From: a virus | Virus record (IMG/VR): IMGVR_UViG_3300045988_079349 | DNA length: 23,036 bases | Direction: 5' to 3' (one strand) | In this document: positions 9,123 through 23,036 of the stretch, one piece after another | Layout: every line of letters starts with the position of its first letter | Numbering within the stretch: the first letter of the stretch is position 1 | Translations under genes and position numbers: made by a program | Notes under the pieces: model-generated | The model's input: only the letters and a program-made list of their open reading frames with translations | Told to the model about the DNA's origin: nothing | Database searches by the model: none

Positions 9123-11299
9123 TCCATATACCCCACATGTTTAACTCTATTGTTTACTTCATCCTGCTTTCCTTTATTAAAGGCGGTCTTGTAGTTACCA
9201 GTTAGATAGCCTGTTACCCTTCTTAACTGTTGAATTTCTTTACTACCGCACTGAGGGCACTTATCATTAAACTCGCCAGTATATCCGCAATTTAGGCAGG
9301 TGTCACATGGAACATTTATTGCAAAGTATGGAATATCTTTATCCATAGCATAATTTACTAATGTCTCCATAGCATCAATATTCTTTTCCATGCCAGTATC
9401 TAACTCAACATAAGTAATACAACCAGCAGAAGAATATCCAGTTAATTGACTTTCAATATCAATTTTATCAAATGGAGAGAGTTGGTGCCATACTGGTACG
9501 TGCATAGAATTAGTAAAGAACTCTCTATCGCTTACATTAGGAATGATACCATACTTATCACGGAATTTTTTAAGAGAGGTATAGCAAAGATTCTCGGCTG
9601 GAGTATAATATACTCCGAAATTAAGTCTATATTTTTCTTTATACTCTGCGCATCTATCTTTAAATAACTGCTCTATTCTTTTTGCTAATTTCATGCCCTC
9701 TGGCTCAGTATGATCACATCCAATAAGAATTTGTAAAGTTTCTGCCAATCCAATCTGCCCAAGACTCAATGTGCCATGTTGTAAAGCACTTCGAGTAGAA
9801 ATTCCATCATATCCAGCCATTAAGCCATTTTCATACATGAATTTTGCCGAATCCGCAGGTTGCGCACAGATATATTCAAATCTTTCAAGAAGCATATCTT
9901 TCGCTTCTTCGATCTTAATATCTAAAAGTTTCATAAAAGTTTCTACGTCACCATTAGCTTCCATTGCTATTGTTGGCATTATAATAGTAACAGGACAGAT
10001 ATTTCCTCTACCGTCTTTCTGTTGCTTTAAGCCGTTAATATCGAATCCATTAGCAGTTCTACATCCCATTGTAGAGAAATATGTACTTGGATCGTTTACA
10101 TCATATCCGGCATTGCCAGACCAATCTACATTAGCATAATTAGGATATAATCTAGTGGCAGTAGACTTTAATGCTAATCTAAATAAATCGTAATTTGGAT
10201 CTCCAGGCTTCCTATTTACACCTTTCATACATTGGAAAATTCCACAGGGGAAAATTGAAGTCTTGTGAAGTCTACCAAGTCCTTCAATAGAGACTTCCAG
10301 AAGAGCTTTAGTAACCATTCTTCCTTCTGGAAGAGTACAAGTTCCATAGTTAATAGAAGTAAATGGAAGTTGATTGCCGGAACGAGATTGAAGAGTATTT
10401 AGATTATGATACATTCCCTCAACCGCTTGATGAACTTCCTTTTCTGTCATAGCGATAGCATATGAATATGCGCCTTTAAATTCCTTATAGATAGGATCTT
10501 CAATAGACAGTTGATTATTTAATCTATCATCCATGCTAATGACTTGTTCGATATATGTCAATCCATCCATATAATGTTTATAGAAACTTTTTCTTACATA
10601 AGGAATCATAGTCCAATCAAGATGTGTAGCAGAAACGCCACCAAACTGCTGTAAACTTTGAAGCTGAAAGATTACAGCAACAAGTTGAAAAGCTGTATTT
10701 ACTGAACCCGCTGGTCGTACATCAGTTTGTCTTGTATTGAATCCTTTTGCAAGCAAATCATCAAAAGGAATAGAAAGACAGTTATGCATACCTACTGCAT
10801 AAGCATTTAAGTCATGAATATAAATCTCATTATTCTCATGGTTTGCGCGTGATTTATTAGATACAAGATAATCAAGAGCGTACTTCTTCATTTGCAAATC
10901 AGAAGCTGCACCAACTCTTCCGCCGAATGACATTTCATCAACATTAGCATTTTGATTCTCTATATCTGAACCCTGCACTTTGGCAGAAAAGGCTTTCATA
11001 AAATCGTCTTGCCCTTTTCTGGCAATTTCTCTTTTATATCTATATCTAATGTATGCTTTAGCAACGTCTCTCCGCTCAGACTTCATAAGAAAATCTTCCA
11101 CCATGTCTTGAATTTTTTCTACAGAAACCACATCGTCAGAAGTTTTTACTGCATACTTAATTTCATCTGCAATATCATTTGCAGTATCATCTTCATATAA
11201 TTCTCCATCTACTTCGATGAAGGCTTTATTGATAGCGTTGATAATTCGTTCTCTATCAAATGGAACTACTATACCATTTCTTTTCTTTATTTGTAACAT
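9119..11299 (-). CDS. nrdD: Anaerobic (class III) ribonucleoside-triphosphate reductase, 726 aa. No TAG.
   Basis: ATP-cone-like N-terminus, glycyl-radical motif RRVTGYL near the C-terminus, C-terminal Cys cluster CDTCLNCGYTGE...CPQCG. True start is ATG 11297-11299 with SD aaggag 9 nt upstream; the ORF-track start is an upstream TTG. Confidence 0.95.
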   Translation of the reverse strand: MLQIKKRNGIVVPFDRERIINAINKAFIEVDGELYEDDTANDIADEIKYAVKTSDDVVSVEKIQDMVEDFLMKSERRDVAKAYIRYRYKREIARKGQDDFMKAFSAKVQGSDIENQNANVDEMSFGGRVGAASDLQMKKYALDYLVSNKSRANHENNEIYIHDLNAYAVGMHNCLSIPFDDLLAKGFNTRQTDVRPAGSVNTAFQLVAVIFQLQSLQQFGGVSATHLDWTMIPYVRKSFYKHYMDGLTYIEQVISMDDRLNNQLSIEDPIYKEFKGAYSYAIAMTEKEVHQAVEGMYHNLNTLQSRSGNQLPFTSINYGTCTLPEGRMVTKALLEVSIEGLGRLHKTSIFPCGIFQCMKGVNRKPGDPNYDLFRLALKSTATRLYPNYANVDWSGNAGYDVNDPSTYFSTMGCRTANGFDINGLKQQKDGRGNICPVTIIMPTIAMEANGDVETFMKLLDIKIEEAKDMLLERFEYICAQPADSAKFMYENGLMAGYDGISTRSALQHGTLSLGQIGLAETLQILIGCDHTEPEGMKLAKRIEQLFKDRCAEYKEKYRLNFGVYYTPAENLCYTSLKKFRDKYGIIPNVSDREFFTNSMHVPVWHQLSPFDKIDIESQLTGYSSAGCITYVELDTGMEKNIDAMETLVNYAMDKDIPYFAINVPCDTCLNCGYTGEFNDKCPQCGSKEIQQLRRVTGYLTGNYKTAFNKGKQDEVNNRVKHVGYME

Positions 11300-11365
11300 A
11301 TAATACAACTCCTTGTAATATATTTTTTGTTGAACACTATATATTGTGATTTCTAATATAATTAT

Positions 11366-11911
11366 TTAATAGAATTGTCCAAATATAGTATCAACAGCTA
11401 TATCAATATCATCTAAGGTATTGTTCTAAAGAGTTATATATTTTATATCATTAAGAAAACTAAAATCTTCTGTATCCGCTTTGTATCTTCTAATTATTTC
11501 GTCTACATCAGGATTTTCTTCTCTATTCAGCTATCTTAAAAGACGCTACTTACCCGCGGCCCGCACATAAAATACATACAGTTCAATGTTTTCATCTTCC
11601 TGTAAGCATCTAACTCCTTCTGGATTAAATACTCCTATATTTATCTTATCTATTGTTAGACTTTGACTATCTGTTCCATAGTGCCAACCATTAAATTCAG
11701 TAGCCTCTAGCATATCTCCATTTAAGATTTTTCTAATAAAATCTTCAACGGATAAGAAGTGATAATTAACTCCTTCTTTCTCTCCCTGCCTAGGAGGTCG
11801 AGTCGTACAACTAATAATTTCATTGAAATAGGAAGGATACTTCTCCATAATTCTATGGAGAATAGTATCCTTACCGCTTCCTGCTTCACCCATTAATGCT
11901 ACTATCTTCAT
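11366..11911 (-). CDS. gmk: Guanylate kinase-like nucleoside monophosphate kinase, about 182 aa. Extended through TAG 11546, 11531 and 11426 to TAA 11366.
   Basis: P-loop GEAGSGKDT and TTRPPRQGEKEGVNYHF (Gmk signature). The read-through tail KQRLLRQLNREEN...YITLQNN resembles the Gmk C-terminus. Start chosen at ATG 11909-11911, which has SD spacing 9. Confidence 0.8.
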
Positions 11912-14900
11912 CTTCATCTTCTCCTTGTTTTCTTTCGCTTCTCAAGATTAGATCTGTTCCATTGATAATTTCATCAATGTGATAAAGTTGATGGCCTCCA
12001 GAACTTGCATATTTCTTTGTTACAAATTCATCGCCTCGTCTAATCCCTTGCACAACAATCATATTACCTCTATTAAACCAAGACTTCTCTACAACTCTCT
12101 TTGTTCCATCTGCGTTTCTTTGGAAGGTTTGTTTATCAAACAAAGCAAAGTATTCTTGTCTGAATTTAACTGCTACTACTCCAGTTGTTGTAAGAAGATA
12201 TACAGTACTCTTCACCTTATTTTTTGCAATGCACGTCCCGCAGATTTTATGCAGTTTATAAATAGGAATTAAAGAAGCACCTTTTTTAAATACTTTATCT
12301 ACTTGAGGTTCTTCTGGAAGGCTAAAGAAGTCTACAAATCCATATTTGCTATTGTTAATATTCGCTAGCTCATGGTCGTGATAATAAAAACATAGAGATT
12401 CCATTTCCCAAGAAGATATGTTCCCTGAAGCATACTTTTTCCAATCTTCCATAAAGATGGTGGTGTTTAAATTATCTAAAATCGTTTCTTTATTTTCAGA
12501 GATCCAATTTCTAAATACGTCCATGTAACTTTGATAAATTTTATCCCAGGCTTTTATGTCAATATACCATGCTAGATTATCTGTTTCCAATAGATCCTCG
12601 CAATCAATTTCAACGAGAAAGGTGATTGCTCTTTCGTCGAGTTTATATTTTGCTACATTGTAAGGATCTTTACACTCTGCTTTTAGATACCTATTAAATT
12701 CATACACTCTTTTCGGCATCACAAACTTTTCTTCATAGGGGATAAGATCATATCTCATTAACCCAGGAAGGTTTTGTAAAGTAATTCTCTTTTTCTTATC
12801 GCAGGTAATCCATATATATTGAATCATAGCCTCCATACGTGAACTAAACTGGTCGAATCCTCCACCTTTAATTAAAGAAATCATTGCTTGTTTATTAGGA
12901 TGAACTCTGTTATAGAAATCAACAAGAGATACATAGGGTCGATTATCTACAATAGTTTTTATCAGTTCATTATTAACATTTGACAAACCCTTTAATCCGA
13001 AAAGAATCTAGTTATTTTTTACATCTGGCTTAAATCCAAAGTCAGAATTATTAATATCCACAAGGGAAACCTTAATTCCTGCATTACGAATTTCTCCTAT
13101 TGCTTTTGCAATCTTTGTATAATCTGATTGTTCTCCTTCTTCTTCATCAATAGCACCACTATTTACAATCAGATACGCCGTATTCCAATATACCGGATTA
13201 AAATGAGTAGCAAGATACAGAGTTTGCATACCAACAAAACTATAAGCAAGAGCATGGATAATACTGAACGAATAACCCATTTGCGGGCCGATGCCATAAG
13301 TCCAGACATAATGTCCTAACGCGGGAGATTTCGCAGAGTTTAAGACCTTTTCTTTAAGTTCTGGGATTTTATTCATTTGCTTTTTACCAACAATTTTTCT
13401 TGCAGCATTCGCTTCTTCAAGAGTAAATCCGCAGATATTCTCGTCTTGTAACATGGTCATCATTTGTTCTTGGCTAGGAGGAACACCATAAGAACGTAAG
13501 AAATGCGGTTCGAGAATCCTTTGTTCTTCTTTTGTTAATCCTTCTCTGTCCATTTCTTGATACCAAAGAGAAATATTATTCTTAAATCGAACATACTTCT
13601 CCATTGGAGTTTCAGCACCTTTTTCGGAAGTCATTAGGCGCATCAATCCATTCGCGTCAGCCATCTCATGCGGATTTTGAGGTTTAATCTTCTTCGCGGC
13701 TTGTGCACCAACGCTTGAGTCAAATTGGAAACATCCAAGAACATCACCATTAGCTAAAGCATCCCACATTTTTTTATCATCTTGAGGCAAGACAGATGGA
13801 TGAAGATATTTATTATATACTTCTCTTAAAGTTAAATCTTTTTCGATAACTCCATCTTCTTGTAGTAATTCAACAGCTTGGATAATAATATCTTGAACTG
13901 CTGTTAAGAGAAAGTCATACTTAACAGAACCAGCAGCCTCTTGGTCATGCAAATCCCATTGAGTAATTAATGCACCCTTTGGTGTTCTCATAACTGCGGC
14001 ACTGTCGAAAATATTTTCATCAAACAAAATAACGCCGGATGCATGACTAGAACGTTTATTTACAAGCCCTTGAATTCTAGTAATAATATCTAGAAGACCG
14101 GGATATTGATTTACAGTATTTACAAATGTAGTAACTGCTTTACGTCCCTTTTCTGGGTTTCCATTAACGACGTCCTCAATGGGCCACAAGAAGCCTCTTT
14201 CCTGCGGAATTAGGGAACTCATATATTGAGCCATATCAACATCAATACCTTCTGGATAATCGTCAGATCTATAACCTCTACAGGCTGTCAATATGGCAGA
14301 TTTAGTTCCCTCAGTTCCGAAGGTACATACTTGGACTAGCCCTAATTCTCCTCGTTCTTTTCTGATTTCAGCAAAGATTTTTTGAATCTTAGATGGAGCC
14401 AAGTCCAAATCAATATCTCCAAGTTCTGTTCTTTTGTCATTGATATATCTCCAGAAAGGAAGATCCCATTCGATTGGATCCAGCTGAGTAATTCCAAGAA
14501 GATAATGATTAAGAGCTGCACAAGCCGAACCTCGACCCGCACCTACCGTACTTCCGCAATCCCAAAACAAATCAACATAGTGTTTTAATGTATTTGGATA
14601 AGCGAACATACAAGTTTGTAATTTCTCTCCAATCACTCTCTTTACTCTTGCTTCTTCTTCAAGTCTTTCTGGATATTCTGGTCTATCAATCCAATCAATA
14701 CCTTTTGCTTCTAGCGCTTTCCAGCATTCATTTATCCAATAACGCTCTTGAATATTATCGGAAGTGAAAAGTGATTTTAGGATTGGATACTTAGACATTT
14801 CATCTGCATAATCATTGTTAGTTCCCCACCATGCAGTAGGAGGGTAATCAGTTACTTCTACTTCTGGAATAGACTGATGCTTTTCCAGAGAGTAAAATTC

Positions 14901-15788
14901 TATTTTATCTTTAATCTCGTTTGAGCAATTAAAAATCCAATCAATAATATTATCTTCATAGCTCAAACGAAGTAATTCTCTAGTTTCAGTTTCGTCCATA
15001 AGACGAGTAAATTCATAGAAGCTATCGACTTCTCTTTCTCCGCCCTTAGAATTTAAATATGCTTTATGGACATATCTATCTTCTTTTGTTAGATAGTGGG
15101 CATCTGTGCCGATACACATATTAACAGAGAACGCTTCTGCAATTTTTAACATTCTTTTATTTGCAATAATCTGGTCAGGATATGACGCTGGTGCGCACTC
15201 AATATAAAAATCATCTTGACCAAATACATCTATACAGAAAGTAATAAAATCTACAATCTGTTGATGATAACGCTTTGCGTTTACTTCATCTTTTATTTCT
15301 TCACAATTATTTAGATTTAAAATGGATTGACCTAATTCACCGCCAATACAAGCAGTAGTGCCAATAATATGCCCTTTAAATCTCTGCATTACATCTTTTA
15401 ATTCTGATTTAAGCAAAGGAACTCTTTCCATTCTTCTATCATAATAACCATTCATCCAGGCGATAGAAGATAACTCCTTTAGTCCCCTATAACCAATTTC
15501 GTCTTTAGCAATTAAGATAAAGTGATAGTATCTTTGTCCTAAATCTCTAGTATCTGTAAGATAGATTTCATTACCAAGAGCTATAACAAAACTGGGATTA
15601 GTTTCTTTGATTTTTTTCGCATATTTATTTACTCTCATATGCGCGGAGAGAGATTCGTGGTCCGTGATAGCTATTCCCGTTAATCCAACTTCAATAGCTT
15701 TATCAATCAGCTCTTCTGGTTTATTTATACAGTCAAGCAAACGCAAGTTACTAAACTCCGTATGCGAATGATTGTTAAAGTAACTCAT
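11886..15788 (-). CDS. dnaE: DnaE-type DNA polymerase III alpha subunit (PHP domain, polymerase core, HhH, OB), about 1300 aa. ORF-track ORFs 13008..15788 and 11886..12986 are one gene joined in frame across TAG 13008-13010.
   Basis: N-terminal PHP motifs (HSHTEFSNLRLLD, GLTGIAITDHESL). The C-terminal piece has the HhH motif (LIKGGGFDQF) and OB fold. Same reading frame, no other stop. SD agagagg with ATG 15786-15788. Confidence 0.9.
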
Positions 15789-15830
15789 ATTATACCTCTC
15801 TTATATTACTATATAATATATTATACTATA

Positions 15831-17006
15831 TTATTTCTTTAAAATCAATGTTAGTTTCTTTGCTGCTCTAGTGCAGGCGGTATAAAGCCATCTAGCATGC
15901 TCTTCTTTATCGAAAGGAAAATTTTCCTCTATAACCAATACATTGTCCCATTGTGAACCCTAGGCTCTATGAGTAGTGATTGCGTACCCATAGTTAAACT
16001 CTATTGGGAGAGGTGGATTATCCTTTCTTTTATTAAGATAATATTCTTGCTGTGGAGTAAAAGTTTTCTTACCTGTTAAAAGCGAATTATAATCAATAGG
16101 AACATCAAGATAGGTGTCTCCAGAGGTTGTCTCAATACTAGAAAGAAGTATTTGAGCCGTAAAAGATTCAGTAAGAGTTTTGTACTGCATAGTAACTAGA
16201 GAGAAATCTTTTAAGTAACCTATTGTGCCGTTGATAAGAGGGTTTTCATCTTTAACAGAACAAATATCCCACGTATTTCTTAGACAAATAACTTTATCGT
16301 CTCTTTCTGGTTCTGAGCTTCTTCCGGCATCAAGTCTCATAAACTAATTTATATCAAATCTATTCTTATTTGTCGCAACAAGAATTTCATCGGCCCAACC
16401 GTACATCCCAGCTACAAGTTCTTGTTTTCTAAATATTTGAGTATCATTTCCTCGCATTGGAACGATTGATTTGCCTTCTCTGATATTCATACTTGTAACA
16501 ATAATATCGCTTTCTTTAGCTTGTCTCATTACCTCATCTAAGAAAATATGCGGGTTGTCAAGTATATGGTTTTCTTTAGTCTTGTCTACAGGTGGCAACT
16601 GGAACGGGTCGCCGCAAGCAATAACATATACTCCATGAGAAAGTAACAATTCCCACATATCAATAGGTAACATAGATACCTCGTCTACAACAATAAGACT
16701 ATATTCAATATGTGGCCGAGGTTTATAAACAAACTTACCATTAGGCATTTGTTTACTATAATAAAGTAATCTATGCGCGGTTTGAGCATTAGGACACCCT
16801 TTTTCTCGCAGTACTTCTGAAGCCTTTCCAGTAAAAGCGATATAAGCAACCTCTTCCTCATACATATTAAGAGCAGCCACAATAAATTTAATTAAGGTGC
16901 TTTTCCCTGTTCCTGCGTATCCCGCGATACAAGTATATGGTTCGTGAGCTTTATATCTTGCTACCGCTATTTTTAATCCTTCCTCTTGTTTACGAGTTAG
17001 TTCCAT
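15831..17006 (-). CDS. RecD/Dda-like SF1 DNA helicase, about 391 aa. ORFs 16344..17006 and 15960..16340 are joined across TAG 16344 and extended across TAG 15960 to TAA 15831.
   Basis: Walker A GYAGTGKST. Motif VI reads AITTHRA-Q-GSQWD with TAG exactly on the conserved Gln of the SF1 QGSE motif. Then LYTACTRAAKKLTLI, the RecD C-terminal signature. Confidence 0.8.
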
Positions 17007-17212
17007 TAGTCATGTTCTCCAATCAAATCATCAAGAATTTCATAGAAACGCAGTTTATCTCGTTCAGCTAAAGAAAGTGCCATATGTGGATTGTCTTTAC
17101 GAGTAGTTTTCATTTCAAGTTGAGCTTGAGCATCTCTAGCTATATTATATCTTAAACAAAGACTATCATATCCATATCCTTTAATTTTTTTCTCAATATC
17201 TTTATATTCCAT
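17006..17212 (-). CDS. Hypothetical small protein, 68 aa.
   Basis: ATG 17210-17212 with SD gaggt. Its TAA stop overlaps the helicase ATG. Confidence 0.45.
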   Translation of the reverse strand: MEYKDIEKKIKGYGYDSLCLRYNIARDAQAQLEMKTTRKDNPHMALSLAERDKLRFYEILDDLIGEHD

Positions 17213-17252
17213 ATATTTTACCTCGAAAAATAGTTAAAGCCATTTTAGTTCC

Positions 17253-17287
17253 TGCGGACGGCCGTCTAGGTTCCGGCCAGTCCGCAG
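17253..17287 (-). terminator. GC-rich hairpin ctgcggacggccg / cggcc-a-gtccgcag, 11 nt downstream of the lysozyme-like gene stop. Candidate intrinsic terminator or processing site.
   Basis: Inverted repeat seen directly. It is the most GC-rich 35 bp in the window. Confidence 0.45.
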
Positions 17288-17297
17288 ATATTTCATT

Positions 17298-18065
17298 TTA
17301 GCTTACAAAATAATTATACGCGATAATTGCATTATTTTGTCTTGTCGTATAACTTCCAGATCCACACCTCTCATAGCATTTCGCAAATGCTAAAGCAGCA
17401 TCAGTTATACTTGTCATATTTAGAAAATCATTATAGTCAAACCCTTTCTTATAGGCGTGACCGAATGTATTAAATTCATATTCAATAGTATTTTCCAAAT
17501 AATTGCATTGCTCTTCTAATGAGGCTCCCCAAACCTCAGAATACGCTTTATTCCACTGACACATTCCATAATATGAAGAATTGCTTAATTCATATTGAAT
17601 GTTCAATGTATTACCACCAACTTCAGTCATTATATTACCAAGTATGCCCGCACAAACTTGATCGTTATAACCTAAGTCTTTGAAATAGCTCCAAATATAT
17701 GTTGCCACTGGGTACTCTTCTTCCTTTTGATGCCAATGTTCCATGAGGTTATCATATACATCTTGATAAGATTGTCTTAGCTCATTCGCCTTATCATATT
17801 CATTCACGGCTAGTTCGATAACATCATGATTTTCAGAATAGCCTAACTGTCTAGCAGCATCGGCCATTTGATGTGCGGCGTTCATATTAGAGATTTGTTC
17901 CGCAATAAGCTCAACCAATGTATCTAAATCATTATAGGTATAACTAATACTGCTGTTATACGGTACTGAATATGCTGATGCAATAGAAATGAAAGGACTA
18001 TTGCAACTACACATTATAGATAATAAAATGATTAAACTTAGTATAATACTCATAAAACGTCTCAT
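17298..18065 (-). CDS. Secreted lysozyme-like peptidoglycan hydrolase (phage tail-lysozyme / Phage_lysozyme2-like domain) with N-terminal Sec signal peptide, about 255 aa.
   Basis: Signal peptide MRRFMSIILSLIILLSIMCSCNSPFISIASA with an AxA cleavage site. Family motifs CAGILGNIMTEVGG and YGMCQWNKAYSE. Start taken at the internal ATG (18063-18065) that has an aaaggagg SD. Confidence 0.55.
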   Translation of the reverse strand: MRRFMSIILSLIILLSIMCSCNSPFISIASAYSVPYNSSISYTYNDLDTLVELIAEQISNMNAAHQMADAARQLGYSENHDVIELAVNEYDKANELRQSYQDVYDNLMEHWHQKEEEYPVATYIWSYFKDLGYNDQVCAGILGNIMTEVGGNTLNIQYELSNSSYYGMCQWNKAYSEVWGASLEEQCNYLENTIEYEFNTFGHAYKKGFDYNDFLNMTSITDAALAFAKCYERCGSGSYTTRQNNAIIAYNYFVS

Positions 18066-18104
18066 TGTGATTGTTTCCTCCTTTAGTAAGAGGTTGCGCA
18101 ATCA

Positions 18105-19856
18105 TTAAAAGTAATACTTCTATCTACTTATAATTTCATAATCTGTAATAATAATTTGTGGTGTCACACTACCGAAGTATCTATTTACTTCTGGTTTACC
18201 AATCAAATTTATACTCACGCAACCTAATTCGCTAGATAAATTATCTAGCTCCTCTTCGCTTGATTTAAACTTGATGCAAGTAACTCCATTTGGTAATTGA
18301 ATCTTCAAAGTAGGATTCTTGTCTCGTGACATGAGACCAATCATATCATTTGTTACTGCAACATTTTCCACCGCGATAAGCGGCTCGTCGATATTTTGAC
18401 CCCAAAGATATTTTGCATCGCCTAAATCGAGAATATCCTTAGAATTAATATCTGACATAGAGTAAATAAAATCTACCTTGTAACTTGGAGAAAATTCTAT
18501 ATCTTTTAGCTATTTATCTGACCATGAAATAAAACTTTCAAAATCTTTATCATAAATACCAAAACCGAAAGCATTGGCGTGTCCTTCGGCGAGGAATACT
18601 AAGTTTGATTCTTTAACAAACTATCTAAAGTCTTTCATTTTAGATTTTTCATATCCTCTAGCAGACCCTTCCCAAGCCTCCAATCCTTCATGCTCTGTTT
18701 TAGAAAGAAGAACTACAGGTCGTTTATATTTACTCATTAACTCGTTAGCAATTAACCCAGTAATACCTCTATCAATAGACATATTATCTAATTTAATTGC
18801 CAGAACTTTATGCTCCAGAAGATTATTTTCCTAGATTATATTCTCTATACATTCAACTTCTGCATCTCTAGTTCTAGTCTAACGATTTTTAACATTAGTA
18901 CAAACTCTTAGTGCTTGTTCTAATCTTGTTTCTTCTTGTCCCTTACATCCTCGTTTAGTAGAAGGAATAAGATCATATGCTTTCCATTCAAGCATACTTT
19001 CAAATAGAATCTACTTTTCGTCTTGAGTACCCACACGAGTAATAGCATTAACAAGAGGAACAATATAGAACGCTACTCCTATAGGAGTTAAATCTCCTTT
19101 CCCTAACTAATAAACATTTTTATCAGCCATACCTTTAATAAATGGATTGCGGAGACTCGATCTCTATAGCCCCTACTGGATAAGATAATGAGTTTCAAAA
19201 TCTCGAATATCCATCATGTCTCCAACAAGACCAGTTGCTACAATATCAAGATAATCGTCCGCATATGCGGTTCCGCAAATACTATCCATATATTGGCATA
19301 GCTTATAAACTACTCCTACACCAGATAATGATTTTGTTGGATAATCGCAAAGCTGATTATTAACAACGCAGGCATATTCGGATACTTTATCTGCTAAGTG
19401 ATGGTCTATGACCAGTACGTCAATTCCGCGATTAGCTAGTTCTTCATGCTCTTGATAATCATTGGAGCTAGAATCTGGCGCAATAACAAGTGAAACATTT
19501 TCGGGGATTAACTCTGGTTTTATTCCATGAATCTTGCCAGAATGAAAGTTATAAATAAACTTGTTAATGGCCGAAGGAAATTGTGCATGAAGGTAGTTTA
19601 ATAACAACGCAGAAGAAGTATATCCATCACAGTCGCTATCTACCTAGATATAGATGTAAGAATCGTCCTTTAAAATATGTTTAATAATTAATTTAGCAGC
19701 GTCCTCAATGTTATTGAGAAGTAAGGGGGATAAATTATCTTTTTCTGATACTGTTAAATAATGCTATATATCATTATACTAAATACCCCTATTAACTAAT
19801 ACTTGCTCTAAAGCACTATAATTCTAATTTCTTGGATTTATTAATGAATATTCCAA
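18105..19856 (-). CDS. RecJ-like DHH/DHHA1 phosphoesterase (ssDNA exonuclease-like), about 583 codons with 12 in-frame TAG (19824, 19779, 19764, 19644, 19173, 19107, 19011, 18879, 18831, 18621, 18510, 18120). Candidate TTG start at 19854-19856 after SD agggag; stop TAA 18105. Merges ORF-track ORFs 19173..19607 and 18120..18458 plus uncalled sequence.
   Basis: One continuous frame checked codon by codon. Motif I VDSDCDGYTSSALLL, motif II LVIAPD, motif III VLVIDHH, DHHA1 GHANAFGFG. N-terminal LVNRGI resembles RecJ. Confidence 0.75.
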
Positions 19857-19862
19857 TCCTTA

Positions 19863-20147
19863 TCACTCCCTTTTATTTTGATGCGCCAGTCCTGTTCCAT
19901 TACAGCCCCTACATTTAATATAATCACTTAGATCATTAGGGTCTGGCCTATCATCCTCTGCGCAAGATCTGTTTCTTAGAACACGACCTGTACCGTTACA
20001 ATATTCACACGCTTGATTTATTTCTCTAAGTTTTTCTAAACTATCTAAATATGGTTGAATTTTCTTATTATACCTCTGCGCCAATTCATTTAGCTCTTTT
20101 TCTATTGATTTAATAGCAGGTACTAAGTTTAGAACTTCTTTACTCAT
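19863..20147 (-). CDS. Small DnaJ-type zinc-finger protein (two CxxCxGxG repeats: CEYCNGTG, CRGCNGTG), 94 aa.
   Basis: The motifs were read directly. TGA stop; no TAG. Confidence 0.5.
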   Translation of the reverse strand: MSKEVLNLVPAIKSIEKELNELAQRYNKKIQPYLDSLEKLREINQACEYCNGTGRVLRNRSCAEDDRPDPNDLSDYIKCRGCNGTGLAHQNKRE

Positions 20148-21243
20148 AAGGGATTATCCTTTCGTTTAATAGCTTCTCAAAGATTTGCGGCCCTCTATCT
20201 ATAGGACTTGCTTTATATGGCAAAATCATTCCTTTATCAAATATAGCTGATATACGAACATTTTTACTATATTTATTATAAATATGAATTAGTTTTGCTT
20301 TTAATCTCTTAAATTCATCATCGCTAATCTCAACAAATTGTCTATCAAAAGCAATTATAATTTCATTAACTCCTAAAGACCTAAGTAAATCTATATGATA
20401 GCTAGATACACTACTTCCGCAACAAGCCACAGATATATCATTATCATACCCATAATAAGACTGATACATAAGACAGCTTTTTTCTGATTCAAATATAATT
20501 GCGGCTTTCACCTTTTTTATATTTTCTTTACTATGGTTTAAATTATACAAATTCATGCTCAAAGGATGATTGTATAACTGTCTATTTACCATAAGAGGTC
20601 TATATTTACCATATCTTTCTGCATCCTCAGAAGATAATGTTCTCCCTCTTATTCCAACTAATCTATTATCAATATCGAAATGAGGAATTGTTATTTGCCC
20701 TCCGCCAGGATAGTAACCAATAAAATTTCTTCTATTAACTTCTGGTAAAATTCCCTCAGCTTCCCATCCTGAAATTCTAGGATAGGCAAAACGAGTAAGA
20801 ATAATTGGATTATATTCTTTCAAAGAAATAGGTTGTTTGGACTTTGGAAGTTGAATATTATGCCTTCTAAATATATCCCAATCTTCTAATTCTTCTTTTT
20901 CATCTTCTAATTCTACTCCGTTGAAGCCAAAGTATCCTGCTATATAATCCATAGCATTATACAATTCCCATTTCTTATCTTCTTGCTTTTTTTTAACCTT
21001 TATACATAGGTCAAATATATCAAAAGTAGGATCTATGCATCCAGTATAGCACCTAAAAAGTTTTGTATTTTCGTAATAATATAACTTTCTTGATCCTTCA
21101 CCGGGAAGATTATGACATATAGTTTGGGAGATGAGCCCGCCATCTACATATTCAGGCTCACCACCCCACGCTTCGAGTAAATCATAAATTTGTTCTAATT
21201 CAAGTTTACTCTTTAACTCATCTTTATCATAGTATCTTGACAT
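20140..21243 (-). CDS. dnaG: DnaG-like DNA primase (CHC2 zinc finger plus TOPRIM), 367 aa, no TAG.
   Basis: CHNLPGEGSRKLYYYENTKLFRCYTGC (CHC2 zinc finger). TOPRIM-like acidic motifs AIIFESEKS and IIIAFDRQ. Confidence 0.8.
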   Translation of the reverse strand: MSRYYDKDELKSKLELEQIYDLLEAWGGEPEYVDGGLISQTICHNLPGEGSRKLYYYENTKLFRCYTGCIDPTFDIFDLCIKVKKKQEDKKWELYNAMDYIAGYFGFNGVELEDEKEELEDWDIFRRHNIQLPKSKQPISLKEYNPIILTRFAYPRISGWEAEGILPEVNRRNFIGYYPGGGQITIPHFDIDNRLVGIRGRTLSSEDAERYGKYRPLMVNRQLYNHPLSMNLYNLNHSKENIKKVKAAIIFESEKSCLMYQSYYGYDNDISVACCGSSVSSYHIDLLRSLGVNEIIIAFDRQFVEISDDEFKRLKAKLIHIYNKYSKNVRISAIFDKGMILPYKASPIDRGPQIFEKLLNERIIPYE

Positions 21244-21245
21244 AA

Positions 21246-21422
21246 TTAAGCATCATAGAAAGATACTTTATTTACTGTTTCTTTCAAGCCAAATTGCTCA
21301 TTGATAATTTGTATCACATAAACATAAGGATTCTGTTTCTTTTCTTCCTCTGTTCTGCTTGAAAGAAGCTCATTAAACATTTTCTTGCTCATTCTGTACT
21401 CTAAACCTTGACTATTCTTCAT
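21246..21422 (-). CDS. Hypothetical small protein, about 58 aa (start at ATG 21420-21422, which has a GGAGGA SD).
   Basis: The ORF-track start is a TTG; the ATG with strong SD lies 27 nt further in. Confidence 0.4.
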   Translation of the reverse strand: MKNSQGLEYRMSKKMFNELLSSRTEEEKKQNPYVYVIQIINEQFGLKETVNKVSFYDA

Positions 21423-21436
21423 TATATATTCCTCCA

Positions 21437-22975
21437 TTATTTTTCCCAAGCTGCTGGCCCTTCATCGACAATTACTCGAATATCTTCAATGCCCACCATC
21501 TCATGTCTCCAATTAGTACAAAATTGTGGTAAAATTCTACAAGTTCCTAAGTTAGCAGAACACCATAGATATACTCCTTTGTACGAACCTCGTCTATTTT
21601 TATAGATAGATAATTTTAGATTCGGACGCAATAAGTTCTTGTTACCCTCTAGTATTGGATCTAACTTAACTAAGTCCTCATCTGTAACACTTAGTAGAAT
21701 CATGCCAACGTCTATTCTATCGGCTATACTTTTTGCGCCTCTTAATAGATTTTGATCTGGCGTTTCACTACTCTAATAATCGGCGTTTAATTGAGTTGCA
21801 GACATGATAAATACACCATATTTATTAGCTAAATCTTTCAATCTAGCGGAGAGCATAAATAAGATATTATCCTCTCTTAATCTAACTCCCCCAGACTTCT
21901 TACTAATTTCTTCAAGAATTTTAAGCGACGTTTGAAGATAGTCGAAAAGAACATATTTAACTTCATTTTCTCTAATATTCTTTTTTATTTTATTCTCTAC
22001 ATCTTGTAAAGAAAAATCTGGTAATTCTTCTATCCAAATTGGACTGCGTTTAATTATTTCTGCGGCCTTTAGCACCCTCTCTTTTTCACCCTCAAAGTAT
22101 TGACCGTTAAGGATATGTTCTTCATCTACGTCAGATAGGAAAGCTAACATCATTGTTTGAACTTCGCTTTTATCTTGCTCTGTGGCAATAAACAAAGTTG
22201 GTTGAGAGGTTCCATTTTTAATCCATCCAAATTGGTCATGATAGATTTCATTGCACGCAAAATTACACGCATCCGCTATCATAGATCTAGTTTTACCGGT
22301 TCCCGTAGCCGCCGACCGCAAATAAAATTTTCGCAATCTTGCTCCTCTTGTTACTGTATTAATTAACGGGCCATATAGTGGAATACCAACTTCGGGATGC
22401 TGTTCTAAATCACTAATAAGTTCATTGATTCCGTCTCCGGCTTGATAGCCTAATCCAAGATCATCTTCTATGTACTTACTTTTGATTTCATCTATTTTTG
22501 TATCAATAGCATGAGCTATTTCAACTAAGCTAGTATTATCCAGCCAATCTTCTTGCATTTGGCGTTTTTTGGTATCGAGAATATTATTTGGATCATAAAG
22601 ATAGCTAACATCAAGACCAAAATTGCTATATGCTCTTAACAAAGTAAACTTCTTTAATCTATTATAATAATAATTAAAAGTATCTTGCCTTGCACTTTGC
22701 GATGCTTCAAGGAGATATTCTACACCCTTGTTTTGCTTAAATATGGCGTCAAACTTTGGTCTGTTTGCTAGATAATCTATAATCGCGTCTATATTAACTT
22801 GACTACCTGTTAGATGGATATTATAGATACTACCGAAAATTATCTTATGAAAATCTTCTTGGAAGTCATCTTCATGAATTATATACTTATCTGTATCATC
22901 AAGAATAGAAGCATTATTGAATACACATCCAATTACCTAAGTAATCGCCGCTGTATCTATATAATTACTCTTCAT
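21437..22975 (-). CDS. dnaB: DnaB-like replicative DNA helicase, about 512 aa. ORFs 21773..22642 and 21437..21703 are joined across TAG 21773 and extended upstream across TAG 22937 to ATG 22973-22975.
   Basis: Walker A SAATGTGKT, Walker B VLFDYLQ, and SATQLNADY-Q-SSETPDQNLLRGAKSIADRIDVGMILLS matching the DnaB SQLNR...RESG.IEQDAD region. Upstream extension AAITQVIGCVF resembles the DnaB N-terminal domain. SD GAGGAGG 6 nt before the ATG. Confidence 0.85.
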
Positions 22976-23036
22976 GCGCTTCCTCCTCATTTAAGAAAGT
23001 AAATAGCTTTCGTATATGTTTCATTGGTTGCCGTTG

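What the first reader, a model, noticed from the sequence alone, without database searches (positions are those of the whole stretch)
18105..19856. Very uneven TAG density: RecJ-like (12) and RuvC (7 in 159 codons) versus zero in NrdD, primase, dUTPase and lysozyme
Within one co-oriented replication module, some genes are free of TAG (NrdD 726 aa, DnaG 367 aa, dUTPase, lysozyme-like, Zn-finger). DnaE has a single TAG near the HhH domain. The recombination and processing nucleases RecJ-like and RuvC-like are saturated with TAG. In recoded phages this pattern has been proposed to make translation of TAG-rich genes conditional on late expression of the suppressor tRNA. Here it would split replication-initiation functions (expressible immediately) from nucleases and resolvases and the structural/lysis genes (delayed).
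Basis: partly seen in the sequence, partly recalled or inferred. Interest (0 to 1): 0.7.

Follow-up and report, generated by a model that had tools for sequence, protein, structure and literature searches.

The report
Gene-specific amber codon use in phage
In a gut phage that reads the stop codon TAG as glutamine, TAG is used freely in a few DNA-cutting enzymes (RecJ-like exonuclease, RuvC resolvase) and almost purged from neighbouring replication genes; the contrast is conserved across related phages and fits an already proposed, untested idea that such codons hold back translation of risky proteins.

Summary
RuvC has 7 in 159. NrdD, primase, dUTPase, the lysozyme-like gene and the Zn-finger gene have none, and DnaE has one. 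The unevenness survives normalising to length and to Gln codons. It is specific to TAG: the other 17 codon families do not differ between the two gene sets.

TAG alternates with Gln in orthologues, and no gene ends in TAG. A CUA-anticodon tRNA lies about 37 kb upstream in a 99%-identical contig. RecJ-like is the most TAG-rich replication gene in most recoded relatives, including phAss-1. RuvC carries 6-10 TAGs in about 30 relatives of two clades. Both genes are under strong purifying selection.

TAG-rich genes sit at my rough estimate of the neutral share (about half of Gln codons); the anomaly is the purge elsewhere. DnaB, DnaE, RecD-like and NrdG also need read-through, and the suppressor tRNA sits in the replication-oriented arm, not the late one.

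Gating or dosage limitation of nucleases and lysins is the best reading, but it is untested. This is a new member of a known kind (Borges et al.; the phAss-1 paper).

The parts
18105..19856 (-). RecJ-like ssDNA exonuclease gene, 583 codons, 13 in-frame TAG. Their + strand coordinates are 19824-19826, 19779-19781, 19764-19766, 19644-19646, 19173-19175, 19164-19166, 19107-19109, 19011-19013, 18879-18881, 18831-18833, 18621-18623, 18510-18512 and 18120-18122.
   Evidence: Single frame only if TAG is read through. PHROG 2484 'RecJ-like ssDNA exonuclease', E 6e-150, full length. Pfam DHH and RecJ_OB above their cut-offs. PDB RecJ 8y30, E 5e-24, over residues 47-575. TAG share of Gln codons 13/25. 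dN/dS 0.06.
6178..6657 (-). RuvC-like Holliday junction resolvase gene, 159 codons, 7 in-frame TAG (codons 9, 54, 67, 76, 121, 154, 156).
   Evidence: Pfam RuvC 32.2 bits (cut-off 22.2), end to end. E. coli RuvC 1hjr aligned over residues 4-156. 6-10 TAG in about 30 orthologues of two clades. dN/dS 0.06.
9119..11299 (-). NrdD (anaerobic ribonucleotide reductase), 726 codons, 0 TAG among 31 Gln codons.
   Evidence: P(0 TAG) = 2.5e-8 under the estimated neutral share of 0.43. 0-2 TAG in relatives.
11886..15788 (-). DnaE-type polymerase gene, 1300 codons, one TAG at codon 927 (13008-13010), inside the HhH domain.
   Evidence: Pfam PHP, DNA_pol3_alpha, finger and HHH_6 (904-983). 1 TAG among 48 Gln codons, p = 6e-11 for depletion.
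20140..21243 (-). DNA primase gene, 367 codons, 0 TAG.
   Evidence: PHROG 47 'DNA primase', E 2e-30. 0 TAG in most of the roughly 60 orthologues examined, 1 or 2 in a few.
21437..22975 (-). DnaB-type helicase gene, 512 codons, 2 TAG (codons 13 and 401).
   Evidence: Pfam DnaB and DnaB_C. The four full-length clade-A orthologues examined carry 2 TAG, positions not compared.
17298..18065 (-). Lysozyme-like gene (Phage_lysozyme2 domain, N-terminal hydrophobic segment), 255 codons, 0 TAG.
   Evidence: Pfam PF18013, E 4e-18. 0-2 TAG in relatives.
19863..20147 (-). Small Zn-finger (CxxC) protein gene, 94 codons, 0 TAG. Its stop lies 6 nt before the RecJ-like start.
6654..7220 (-). dUTPase gene, 188 codons, 0 TAG. 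It overlaps the RuvC start by 4 nt.
   Evidence: Pfam dUTPase. 0 TAG in 28 of 30 orthologues and 1 in the other two.
1476..2099 (+). Serine recombinase gene, 207 codons, 5 TAG. It is a third DNA-cutting enzyme with free TAG use.
   Evidence: Pfam Resolvase, E 6e-31. 4-7 TAG in all relatives of clades A and B.
8649..9122 (-). NrdG activase gene, 157 codons, 2 TAG (codons 120 and 151), although its partner NrdD has none.

Best explanation
The window is part of a roughly 133-149 kb gut phage that reads TAG as glutamine (genetic code 15). Read-through is by its own tRNA with anticodon CUA.

The genes fall into two classes. In one class TAG is used as freely as base composition allows, at about half of all Gln codons. 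This class holds the RecJ-like exonuclease, the RuvC resolvase, the serine recombinase, tail-fibre and some other late-arm genes. In the sister contig it also holds a GIY-YIG endonuclease and an endolysin-like protein. In the other class TAG is removed by selection. This class holds DnaE, NrdD, primase, DnaB, dUTPase, topoisomerase subunits and some late-arm proteins.

Inferred working (not shown): every TAG is a contest between the suppressor tRNA and host release factor 1, so the yield of full-length protein falls roughly as efficiency to the power n. A gene with 7-13 TAGs then gives almost no product until suppression is efficient, while its TAG-free neighbours, probably on the same transcript, are made at once. 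If so, TAG load holds back or caps DNA-cutting and wall-degrading enzymes gene by gene, without separate promoters.

Shown here: recoding, TAG = Gln, the two classes, their conservation across clades, the suppressor tRNA gene, and purifying selection on the TAG-rich genes. Inferred: competition with release factor 1, the yield law, co-transcription, and the biological purpose.
For: - Recoding: only TAG read-through restores long frames. 0 of 30 genes end in TAG.
- TAG = Gln: TAG and Q alternate at the same columns among 88-92% identical orthologues and align with Q in distant ones.
- Suppressor tRNA: a tRNA with anticodon CTA lies at L116 3232-3306, in a contig 99.3% identical to window 1-16988. 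It scores 60 bits on Rfam tRNA. It is 88% identical over 65 nt to a phAss-1 tRNA-Sup-CTA.
- Heterogeneity: p about 1e-11 per codon, and 0 of 20,000 shuffles after Gln normalisation.
- TAG-specific: the 17 other codon families do not differ between RecJ+RuvC and TAG-poor genes (chi2 29.2, df 40, p 0.9). Gln does (chi2 61.5, p 4e-14).
- My rough neutral estimate of the TAG share is about 0.43. RecJ 13/25 and RuvC 7/12 fit it. NrdD 0/31, DnaE 1/48, DnaB 2/21, primase 0/10 and lysozyme-like 0/11 are depleted.
- Conservation: RecJ-like exceeds the pooled DnaE+DnaB+primase+RecD-like genes in clade A (p 1e-6), B (0.008), D (3e-4), L092 (6e-6) and L017 (4e-4), and pooled neighbouring genes in phAss-1 (6/25 versus 0/154, p 4e-6). 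RuvC has 6-10 TAG in about 30 loci.
- The genes are functional: dN/dS is 0.06 for both, like their neighbours. There are no TAA/TGA stops or frameshifts, and length is conserved.
- Tight packing: 6 nt and 39 nt gaps flank the RecJ-like gene, and RuvC overlaps dUTPase by 4 nt.
- Other TAG-rich genes in the same arm of the sister contig are a GIY-YIG nuclease (9 TAG in 228 codons) and an endolysin-like protein (10 in 444).
- Precedent: Borges et al. describe a strongly recoded homing endonuclease inside an early gene and recoded lysis genes.
Against: - No expression, ribosome-profiling or proteome data exist, so timing and yield are pure inference.
- TAG-rich genes do not exceed the neutral expectation, so tolerance suffices and no positive selection for TAG is shown.
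- TAG positions are uniform along genes (KS p 0.81), with no N-terminal bias and no +4 context bias.
- Essential replisome genes carry TAG in clade A (DnaB codon 13, DnaE codon 927), so suppression must already work when replication genes are translated.
- NrdG has TAGs although NrdD has none.
- phAss-1 RuvC has no TAG.
- Some TAG-rich genes are not obviously dangerous: guanylate kinase (3 of 7 Gln codons) and ThyX (3 of 5).
- The promoter and terminator scan was uninformative: 85 promoter-like sites found against 81 expected.
Confidence: 0.55

Rival explanations
1. Efficiency selection only, with no regulatory role. TAG is simply a costly codon, slow and leaky because release factor competes. 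Selection removes it from long or highly expressed genes. It drifts to its compositional equilibrium in low-expression genes such as nucleases and recombinases. The pattern is then a by-product of expression level.
For: TAG-rich genes sit at, not above, the estimated neutral share. TAG sites turn over like synonymous sites: the window and L001 RecJ-like genes share 8 TAG sites and each has 5 private ones, at dS about 0.7 between the window and a clade-A relative. TAG positions are uniform along genes. TAG-poor genes include late-arm proteins (g8, g9), and TAG-rich ones include guanylate kinase and ThyX. The longest genes are the most depleted.
Against: No other codon family shows relaxed bias in RecJ+RuvC (p 0.9). 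That is unexpected if weak translational selection were the cause. In clade B nearly all genes purge TAG, yet RuvC and the recombinase stay saturated. One TAG near codon 18 of RecJ-like recurs in 8 of 15 representatives, and in two of them it is the only TAG in the gene.
Confidence: 0.3
2. Mosaic origin. TAG-free genes were acquired recently from standard-code phages or hosts, while RecJ-like and RuvC are old residents of a recoded lineage.
For: Mosaicism exists. The block 17215-23036 is 96.4% identical to the sister contig, against 99.3% for the rest. Two genes elsewhere in that contig (SPFH, TROVE-like) have an aberrant CAG-rich usage.
Against: Gene order DnaB-primase-RecJ-...-DnaE is kept in all clades. 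Codon usage outside Gln is the same in both classes. dS values are similar for TAG-rich and TAG-free genes. TAG-free genes stay TAG-free over saturated synonymous divergence, which needs selection rather than recency.
Confidence: 0.05
3. RecJ-like and RuvC are decaying pseudogenes broken by amber stops in a standard-code genome.
For: Under the standard code the RecJ-like region yields only 112- and 144-aa ORFs.
Against: There are no TAA or TGA stops or frameshifts in 583 codons. The length of 580-583 codons is conserved in most relatives down to about 53% identity. dN/dS is 0.06. The DxD and DHH motifs are intact. TAG alternates with Gln. TAG is never a terminator in the window. A suppressor tRNA is present.
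Confidence: 0.02
4. The host itself reads TAG as Gln, so TAG has no regulatory meaning and the unevenness is historical noise.
For: The host is unknown. Near-identical 148-149 kb contigs were binned with Oscillospiraceae and Eubacterium MAGs, and nothing was tested on their code.
Against: Strong and persistent avoidance of TAG in core genes and a phage-borne CUA tRNA both imply that TAG is costly in the host. From my own knowledge, no bacterial lineage with TAG = Gln is established.
Confidence: 0.03

Closest known systems
Stop-codon-recoded (code 15, TAG to Gln) gut phages and the 'recoding regulates lytic genes' model of Borges et al. (bioRxiv 10.1101/2021.08.26.457843)
   Same: TAG is a Gln codon in a phage, and a phage suppressor tRNA is present. 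Only part of the genes use TAG. Lysis and virion genes use it heavily. [quoted passage not shown] It tests gene families for a recoded-codon bias, and it describes a heavily recoded homing endonuclease sitting in an early gene.
   Different: Here the strongest and most conserved TAG users in the stretch studied are recombination and repair nucleases (RuvC, RecJ-like, GIY-YIG) and a serine recombinase. They are embedded gene by gene between TAG-free neighbours. In clade B they are saturated while the holin and the other late-arm genes within the fetched loci are TAG-poor. Core replisome genes are not fully standard-code compatible.
phAss-1 and the proposed Phassvirus group (PMC10607447; OQ749652)
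   Same: Genome size is similar (136 kb). The module order is the same: late genes on one strand, and a replication arm related to the SPbeta yorK-yorL genes on the other. TAG is read as Gln, and there are tRNA-Sup-CTA genes, one 88% identical to the tRNA found here. RecJ-like is the only TAG-bearing gene among the eight replication-arm genes compared. The paper notes recoded 'DNA-processing enzymes'.
   Different: Protein identity is only 25-40% and there is no nucleotide similarity. GC content is 44.5% against 34%. phAss-1 RuvC has no TAG. Two of its suppressor tRNAs sit directly upstream of nrdD, whereas here the tRNA is about 37 kb upstream of the RecJ-like gene.
SPbeta yorK-yorL replication genes (Bacillus phage SPBc2, NC_001884)
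   Same: The RecJ-like protein is 36% identical over 99% of its length to YorK, which is annotated as a RecJ-like ssDNA exonuclease. The window also has a DnaE-type polymerase, a DnaB helicase and a primase.
   Different: From my own knowledge, SPbeta uses the standard code. The role and timing of YorK are not established in any source consulted here.

Membership tests
Code 15 (TAG to Gln) recoded phage | Conserved genes are interrupted by in-frame TAG and become full length when TAG is read through | tested here: met
   RecJ-like, RuvC, DnaE, DnaB and others then match Pfam, PHROG or PDB families end to end.
Code 15 (TAG to Gln) recoded phage | TAG columns align with glutamine in homologues | tested here: met
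   TAG/Q alternation among close relatives, and Q in distant ones, for example RecJ columns 73, 361, 624 and RuvC columns 9, 48, 73-75, 128, 147.
Code 15 (TAG to Gln) recoded phage | TAG is not used as a terminator | tested here: met
   0 of 30 genes end in TAG; 23 end in TAA and 7 in TGA.
Code 15 (TAG to Gln) recoded phage | Phage-encoded suppressor tRNA with anticodon CUA | tested here: met
   Not in the window. Present in the 99.3%-identical contig at L116 3232-3306, and in the three other clade-A contigs that span this place. Which amino acid it carries was not tested.
Code 15 (TAG to Gln) recoded phage | Gln detected at TAG positions in peptides | not testable with these tools
   Needs metaproteomics, as done for crAss-like phages (PMC9523058, abstract seen).
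Recoding as a timer of late/lytic genes (Borges model) | Genes needed before the code switch are free of the recoded stop | tested here: inconclusive
   Primase, NrdD, dUTPase and the topoisomerase subunits are TAG-free. DnaB, DnaE, RecD-like, NrdG and ThyX are not.
Recoding as a timer of late/lytic genes (Borges model) | Structural and lysis genes use the recoded stop heavily | tested here: inconclusive
   Endolysin-like 10 TAG, tail fibre 5, g6 8, g7 4, holin 2. But g8 has 2 of 26 Gln codons, g9 has 1, and the holin and g8-g10 of clade B have 0. The capsid genes were not reached.
Recoding as a timer of late/lytic genes (Borges model) | Suppressor activity appears only after an early phase | not testable with these tools
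   Only position is known: same strand as the replication arm, about 37 kb upstream of the RecJ-like gene.
RecJ / DHH-family ssDNA exonuclease | DHH domain with its DxD and DHH motifs | tested here: met
   Pfam DHH 60.8 bits against a cut-off of 28.1. DSDCDG and DHH align with RecJ 8y30.
RecJ / DHH-family ssDNA exonuclease | DHHA1 domain | tested here: inconclusive
   Pfam 23.6 bits, below the cut-off of 25.9. The region is aligned to RecJ 8y30, including the G-H motif.
RecJ / DHH-family ssDNA exonuclease | RecJ OB domain | tested here: met
   Pfam RecJ_OB 29.2 bits against a cut-off of 27. PHROG 2484, E 6e-150.
RecJ / DHH-family ssDNA exonuclease | 5'-3' ssDNA exonuclease activity | not testable with these tools
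   Needs biochemistry.
RuvC Holliday junction resolvase | RuvC fold with the acidic catalytic residues | tested here: met
   Pfam RuvC 32.2 bits against a cut-off of 22.2, covering 2-148 of 148 profile positions. Aligned end to end to E. coli RuvC 1hjr, with D8, E63 and D141/D144 of the query at the aligned acidic positions (residues read from the alignment).
Phassvirus (phAss-1 genus) | High nucleotide identity to phAss-1 (80-86% between the described species) | tested here: not met
   No megablast match in the phage collection. Protein identities are 25-46%. The phage is related at a higher level only.

The most novel reading that the evidence does not exclude
In-frame amber codons act as a selected, gene-by-gene safety catch on DNA-cutting and wall-degrading enzymes (RuvC, RecJ-like, GIY-YIG, serine recombinase, endolysin) that are co-transcribed with TAG-free replication genes. 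Part of this catch would be ancient: one TAG near codon 18 of RecJ-like (motif ALE-TAG-VLxNRG) is kept from this clade to phAss-1. It is the only TAG in that gene in two otherwise TAG-poor representatives (L076, L080).
Probability: 0.3. Interest if true: 0.6.

Novelty: new member of a known kind. Interest (0 to 1): 0.45.

Why it matters
If TAG load really sets when or how much of a protein is made, these phages control individual genes inside an operon by codon choice alone. This locus gives a clean test pair: RecJ-like or RuvC against primase or NrdD, probably on the same transcripts. The comparative series from 0 to 13 TAGs in one orthologous gene shows the order in which genes accept a reassigned stop codon. 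That order bears on how genetic codes change. On the practical side, standard-code annotation breaks these genes into fragments. The RecJ-like gene is annotated as three hypothetical proteins in the phAss-1 record.

Tried and rejected
- Nucleotide search of the whole window against 50,697 phage records found no match. No close relative with an annotated complete genome was available.
- tRNA scans of the window and of about 65 related loci around the replication genes found nothing. The suppressor tRNA appeared only after three extra walking scans upstream. About half of the genome is still unseen (contig 075249 positions 1-15.6 kb and 79-133 kb), so the capsid genes and any further tRNAs were not reached.
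- The promoter and terminator scan matched the shuffled expectation and says nothing about transcription units.
- N-terminal clustering of TAG and a +4 base bias were tested and not found.
- Site-specific conservation of the TAG near codon 18 of RecJ-like gave p = 0.005 with all 15 non-independent sequences. With one sequence per clade it gave p = 0.45. I keep it as a lead, not a result.
- Rfam found only the tRNAs next to the suppressor tRNA, and no ribozyme of the kind reported near phage suppressor tRNAs (PMC10879173). It found nothing in the window.
- An invertible switch at the 21-nt inverted repeat near the serine recombinase was looked for. All roughly 30 relatives have the same orientation.
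- Pseudogene, foreign-origin and general-codon-bias explanations were rejected.
- My own greedy gene caller gives spurious opposite-strand ORFs in places. Conclusions rest on genes with homology support.
Full report
**What the window is**

The 23 kb window has 34% GC and two convergent gene arms separated by a hairpin at 5640-5667.

- The plus-strand arm (1-5656) encodes a tail-fibre-like protein, a serine recombinase, a holin and several proteins of unknown function.
- The minus-strand arm (5676-22990) encodes, in transcription order: DnaB, a small ORF, primase, a Zn-finger protein, the RecJ-like exonuclease, a lysozyme-like protein, a small ORF, a RecD-like helicase, DnaE, guanylate kinase, NrdD, NrdG, a formate/nitrite-transporter-like protein, three small ORFs, dUTPase, RuvC and g12.

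Long frames appear only when TAG is read through.

**Check of the observation**

- With starts chosen by ribosome-binding sites, the RecJ-like gene (18105-19856, minus strand) has 13 TAGs in 583 codons.
- RuvC has 7 in 159. NrdD, primase, dUTPase, the lysozyme-like gene and the Zn-finger gene have none. DnaE has one, at codon 927 inside its HhH domain.
- The distribution over 30 genes is far from uniform (G = 111.6, df 29, p about 1e-11). It stays so when TAG is counted against all Gln codons: 0 of 20,000 shuffles reached the observed value.
- No gene ends in TAG.

**TAG is glutamine, and the genes are alive**

- Among orthologues 88-92% identical, TAG and Q swap at the same columns. In distant, TAG-free relatives many of these columns are Q.
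- RecJ-like and RuvC have dN/dS of 0.06, like their neighbours.
- RecJ-like keeps its DxD and DHH motifs and aligns with RecJ 8y30 over residues 47-575. RuvC aligns end to end with E. coli RuvC.
- The pseudogene reading is excluded.

**The effect is specific to TAG**

- Codon usage in the 17 other degenerate families does not differ between RecJ+RuvC and the TAG-poor replication genes (chi2 29.2, df 40, p 0.9). Gln differs massively (chi2 61.5, p 4e-14).
- This argues against foreign origin and against generally relaxed codon selection.
- I made a rough neutral expectation from analogous synonymous pairs: TTG/CTG for C/T at the first position, and Lys/Glu A/G at the third. It puts the TAG share of Gln codons near 0.43.
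- RecJ-like (13/25), RuvC (7/12), the recombinase, the tail fibre, g6 and g7 fit that value.
- NrdD (0/31), DnaE (1/48), DnaB (2/21), primase (0/10), the lysozyme-like gene (0/11) and g8 (2/26) are significantly depleted.
- 'Saturated' is therefore apt. The TAG-rich genes are at the ceiling for free use, and the real signal is purging elsewhere.

**Relatives**

Three scans of IMG/VR gave about 100 related loci.

The window is 99.3% identical over 1-16988 to contig IMGVR_UViG_3300045988_075249 (132,915 bp). It is 96.4% identical over 17215-23036.

TAG counts in RecJ-like across clades, with protein identity to the window copy in brackets:

| Group | TAGs in RecJ-like |
|---|---|
| Clade A (92%) | 13 |
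| Clade B (67-70%) | 1-4 |
| L017 group (65%) | 5 |
| L076 group (66%) | 1 |
| Clade D (53%) | 4-5 |
| L090 (47%) | 9 |
| L092 (41%) | 10 |
| phAss-1 (36%) | 6 |
| L008-L019 group (49%) | 0 |

- DnaE, DnaB, primase and RecD-like have 0-2 TAGs nearly everywhere and 0-3 overall.
- Fisher tests of RecJ-like against those four genes pooled are significant in clades A, B, D, L092 and L017. In phAss-1 the test against seven neighbouring genes (DnaE, primase, RecD-like, RuvC, NrdD and two others) gives p 4e-6.
- In the L008-L019 group RecJ-like has no TAG, and the few long ORFs that end in TAG reach a TAA or TGA within 5-16 codons, so TAG looks like a true stop there.
- RuvC has 6-10 TAGs in all of about 30 loci of clades A and B, partly at shared columns. 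phAss-1 RuvC has none.
- The serine recombinase has 4-7 TAGs throughout.
- In clade B only about 10% of Gln codons are TAG. There RuvC (8/14) and the recombinase (7/14) are already saturated, while the holin, g8-g10 and RecJ-like (3/25) are TAG-poor.
- Genes thus seem to accept TAG in a reproducible order: RuvC and the recombinase first, then RecJ-like, and the core replisome last.

**The suppressor tRNA**

- No tRNA lies in the window or around the replication genes of relatives.
- Walking upstream in contig 075249 found a four-tRNA cluster: Ser-UGA, CUA, Leu-CAA, Cys-GCA. The CUA tRNA is at L116 3232-3306.
- That is contig position about 18.9 kb, roughly 37 kb upstream of the RecJ-like gene and on the same strand as the replication arm.
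- It folds as a cloverleaf and scores 60 bits as tRNA in Rfam. It is 88% identical over 65 nt to a phAss-1 tRNA-Sup-CTA that sits next to nrdD. The recoding machinery therefore looks shared by descent with phAss-1.
- Clade B lacks this tRNA at the syntenic place.

**More TAG-rich islands**

I reconstructed 63.6 kb of contig 075249. The only well-supported TAG-rich genes in the replication-oriented arm are:

- an endolysin-like protein (lysozyme, amidase and SLH domains; 10 TAG in 444 codons);
- a GIY-YIG endonuclease (9 in 228);
- ThyX (3 in 208);
- RecJ-like;
- guanylate kinase;
- NrdG;
- RuvC.

All of these lie between TAG-free neighbours. Most, though not all, are enzymes that cut DNA or cell wall.

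**How it most likely works**

Shown: TAG is a Gln codon read by a phage tRNA. A defined and conserved subset of genes uses it freely, and selection keeps it out of the rest.

Inferred: each TAG is a contest with host release factor 1. Full-length yield would then fall steeply with TAG number, and a gene with 7-13 TAGs would be nearly silent until suppression is efficient.

The RecJ-like gene is separated from its neighbours by 6 and 39 nt, and RuvC overlaps dUTPase. Separate transcriptional control is therefore unlikely, and TAG load would give gene-level control within operons.

Against a strict early/late switch:
- DnaB (TAG at codon 13), DnaE, RecD-like and NrdG need read-through.
- The suppressor tRNA is in the replication-oriented arm.
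- TAG positions show no N-terminal bias.
- TAG-rich genes do not exceed the neutral share.

The main rival is that TAG is merely a costly codon purged from long or highly expressed genes.

**A lead that is not established**

One TAG near codon 18 of RecJ-like (motif ALE-TAG-VLxNRG) occurs in 8 of 15 clade representatives, including phAss-1. In L076 and L080 it is the only TAG in the gene. The window itself has CAA there.

A permutation test gives p = 0.005 for all 15 non-independent sequences, but p = 0.45 with one sequence per clade.

**Comparison with what is known**

- Borges et al. (10.1101/2021.08.26.457843) report recoded structural and lysis genes and variable recoding of replication machinery. 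They also report gene-family tests and a heavily recoded homing endonuclease in an early gene.
- The phAss-1 paper (PMC10607447) notes recoded 'DNA-processing enzymes'.
- A full-text search found no paper that combines in-frame TAG or alternative-code phages with resolvases.
- The finding is therefore a well-documented new example, with some added resolution, of a known phenomenon. It is not a new mechanism.

Noticed in passing
window 8110-8652 (-): A short (180 aa) formate/nitrite-transporter-family gene lies directly downstream of nrdD-nrdG (Pfam PF01226, E 2.6e-15). From my own knowledge, class III ribonucleotide reductase uses formate as reductant, so this may be a phage auxiliary formate channel. 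It is conserved in clades A and B.
   Followed up: partly
window 42-62 and L024 17508-17528 (outside the window); recombinase at window 1476-2099 (+): A 21-nt inverted repeat (90% complementary) covers codons 3-9 of two divergent tail-fibre-like genes 328 nt apart, near a Hin-type serine recombinase. This would suit an invertible switch of receptor-binding proteins. All of about 30 relatives have the same orientation, so inversion is not shown.
   Followed up: partly
window 16989-23036 versus L004/L054: Mosaic structure relative to the sister contig 075249: 99.3% identity over 1-16988 and 96.4% over 17215-23036. The RecJ-like and lysozyme-like proteins are only 93-94% identical, while DnaB and primase are 100% identical. 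The g24 segment (16989-17214) is replaced in the contig by a different insert with a Zn-ribbon ORF.
   Followed up: partly
L116 2483-4198 (contig 075249, about 18.1-19.8 kb): A four-tRNA cluster Ser(UGA)-Sup(CUA)-Leu(CAA)-Cys(GCA) is co-oriented with the replication arm. Clade B relatives keep Ser, Leu and Cys but lack the CUA tRNA at this place, although their RuvC and recombinase are TAG-saturated.
   Followed up: partly
L115 3466-7800 (contig 075249, about 27.9-32.1 kb): About 4 kb has only one credible ORF (an RNA-ligase-like gene, by its N-terminal sequence). It lies just upstream of phosphoesterase, Thg1-like and kinase-like genes, which I judged from sequence motifs only. Rfam gave no hit.
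   Followed up: partly
L102 799-1695 and L116 4328-5851: An SPFH-like gene (CAG 16, CAA 2) and a possibly TROVE/Ro-like gene (CAG 11, CAA 0) use Gln codons quite unlike the rest of the genome, where CAA dominates. They are probably recent acquisitions. I did not confirm either family with a profile search.
   Followed up: no
L004 2244-2930 and L102 4849-6183: A GIY-YIG endonuclease (9 TAG in 228 codons) and an endolysin-like protein with lysozyme, amidase and SLH domains (10 TAG in 444) sit as TAG-rich islands among TAG-free genes of the replication-oriented arm. A small membrane protein follows the endolysin.
   Followed up: yes
window 8098-8126 (-) and 5640-5667: The best sigma-70-like site of the scan (TTGACA, 17 nt spacer, TATTAT, with a TG) lies just upstream of g17. 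It could start a sub-operon g17-g16-g15-dUTPase-RuvC-g12. An 11-bp-stem hairpin lies between the convergent arms. Overall the scan did not exceed the shuffled expectation.
   Followed up: no
L110, L111 (genome contigs): Contigs of 148,971 and 147,780 bp with 91-93% identical primase are binned in MAGs named Oscillospiraceae and Eubacterium. They are probably whole phage genomes and hint at a Clostridia host.
   Followed up: no
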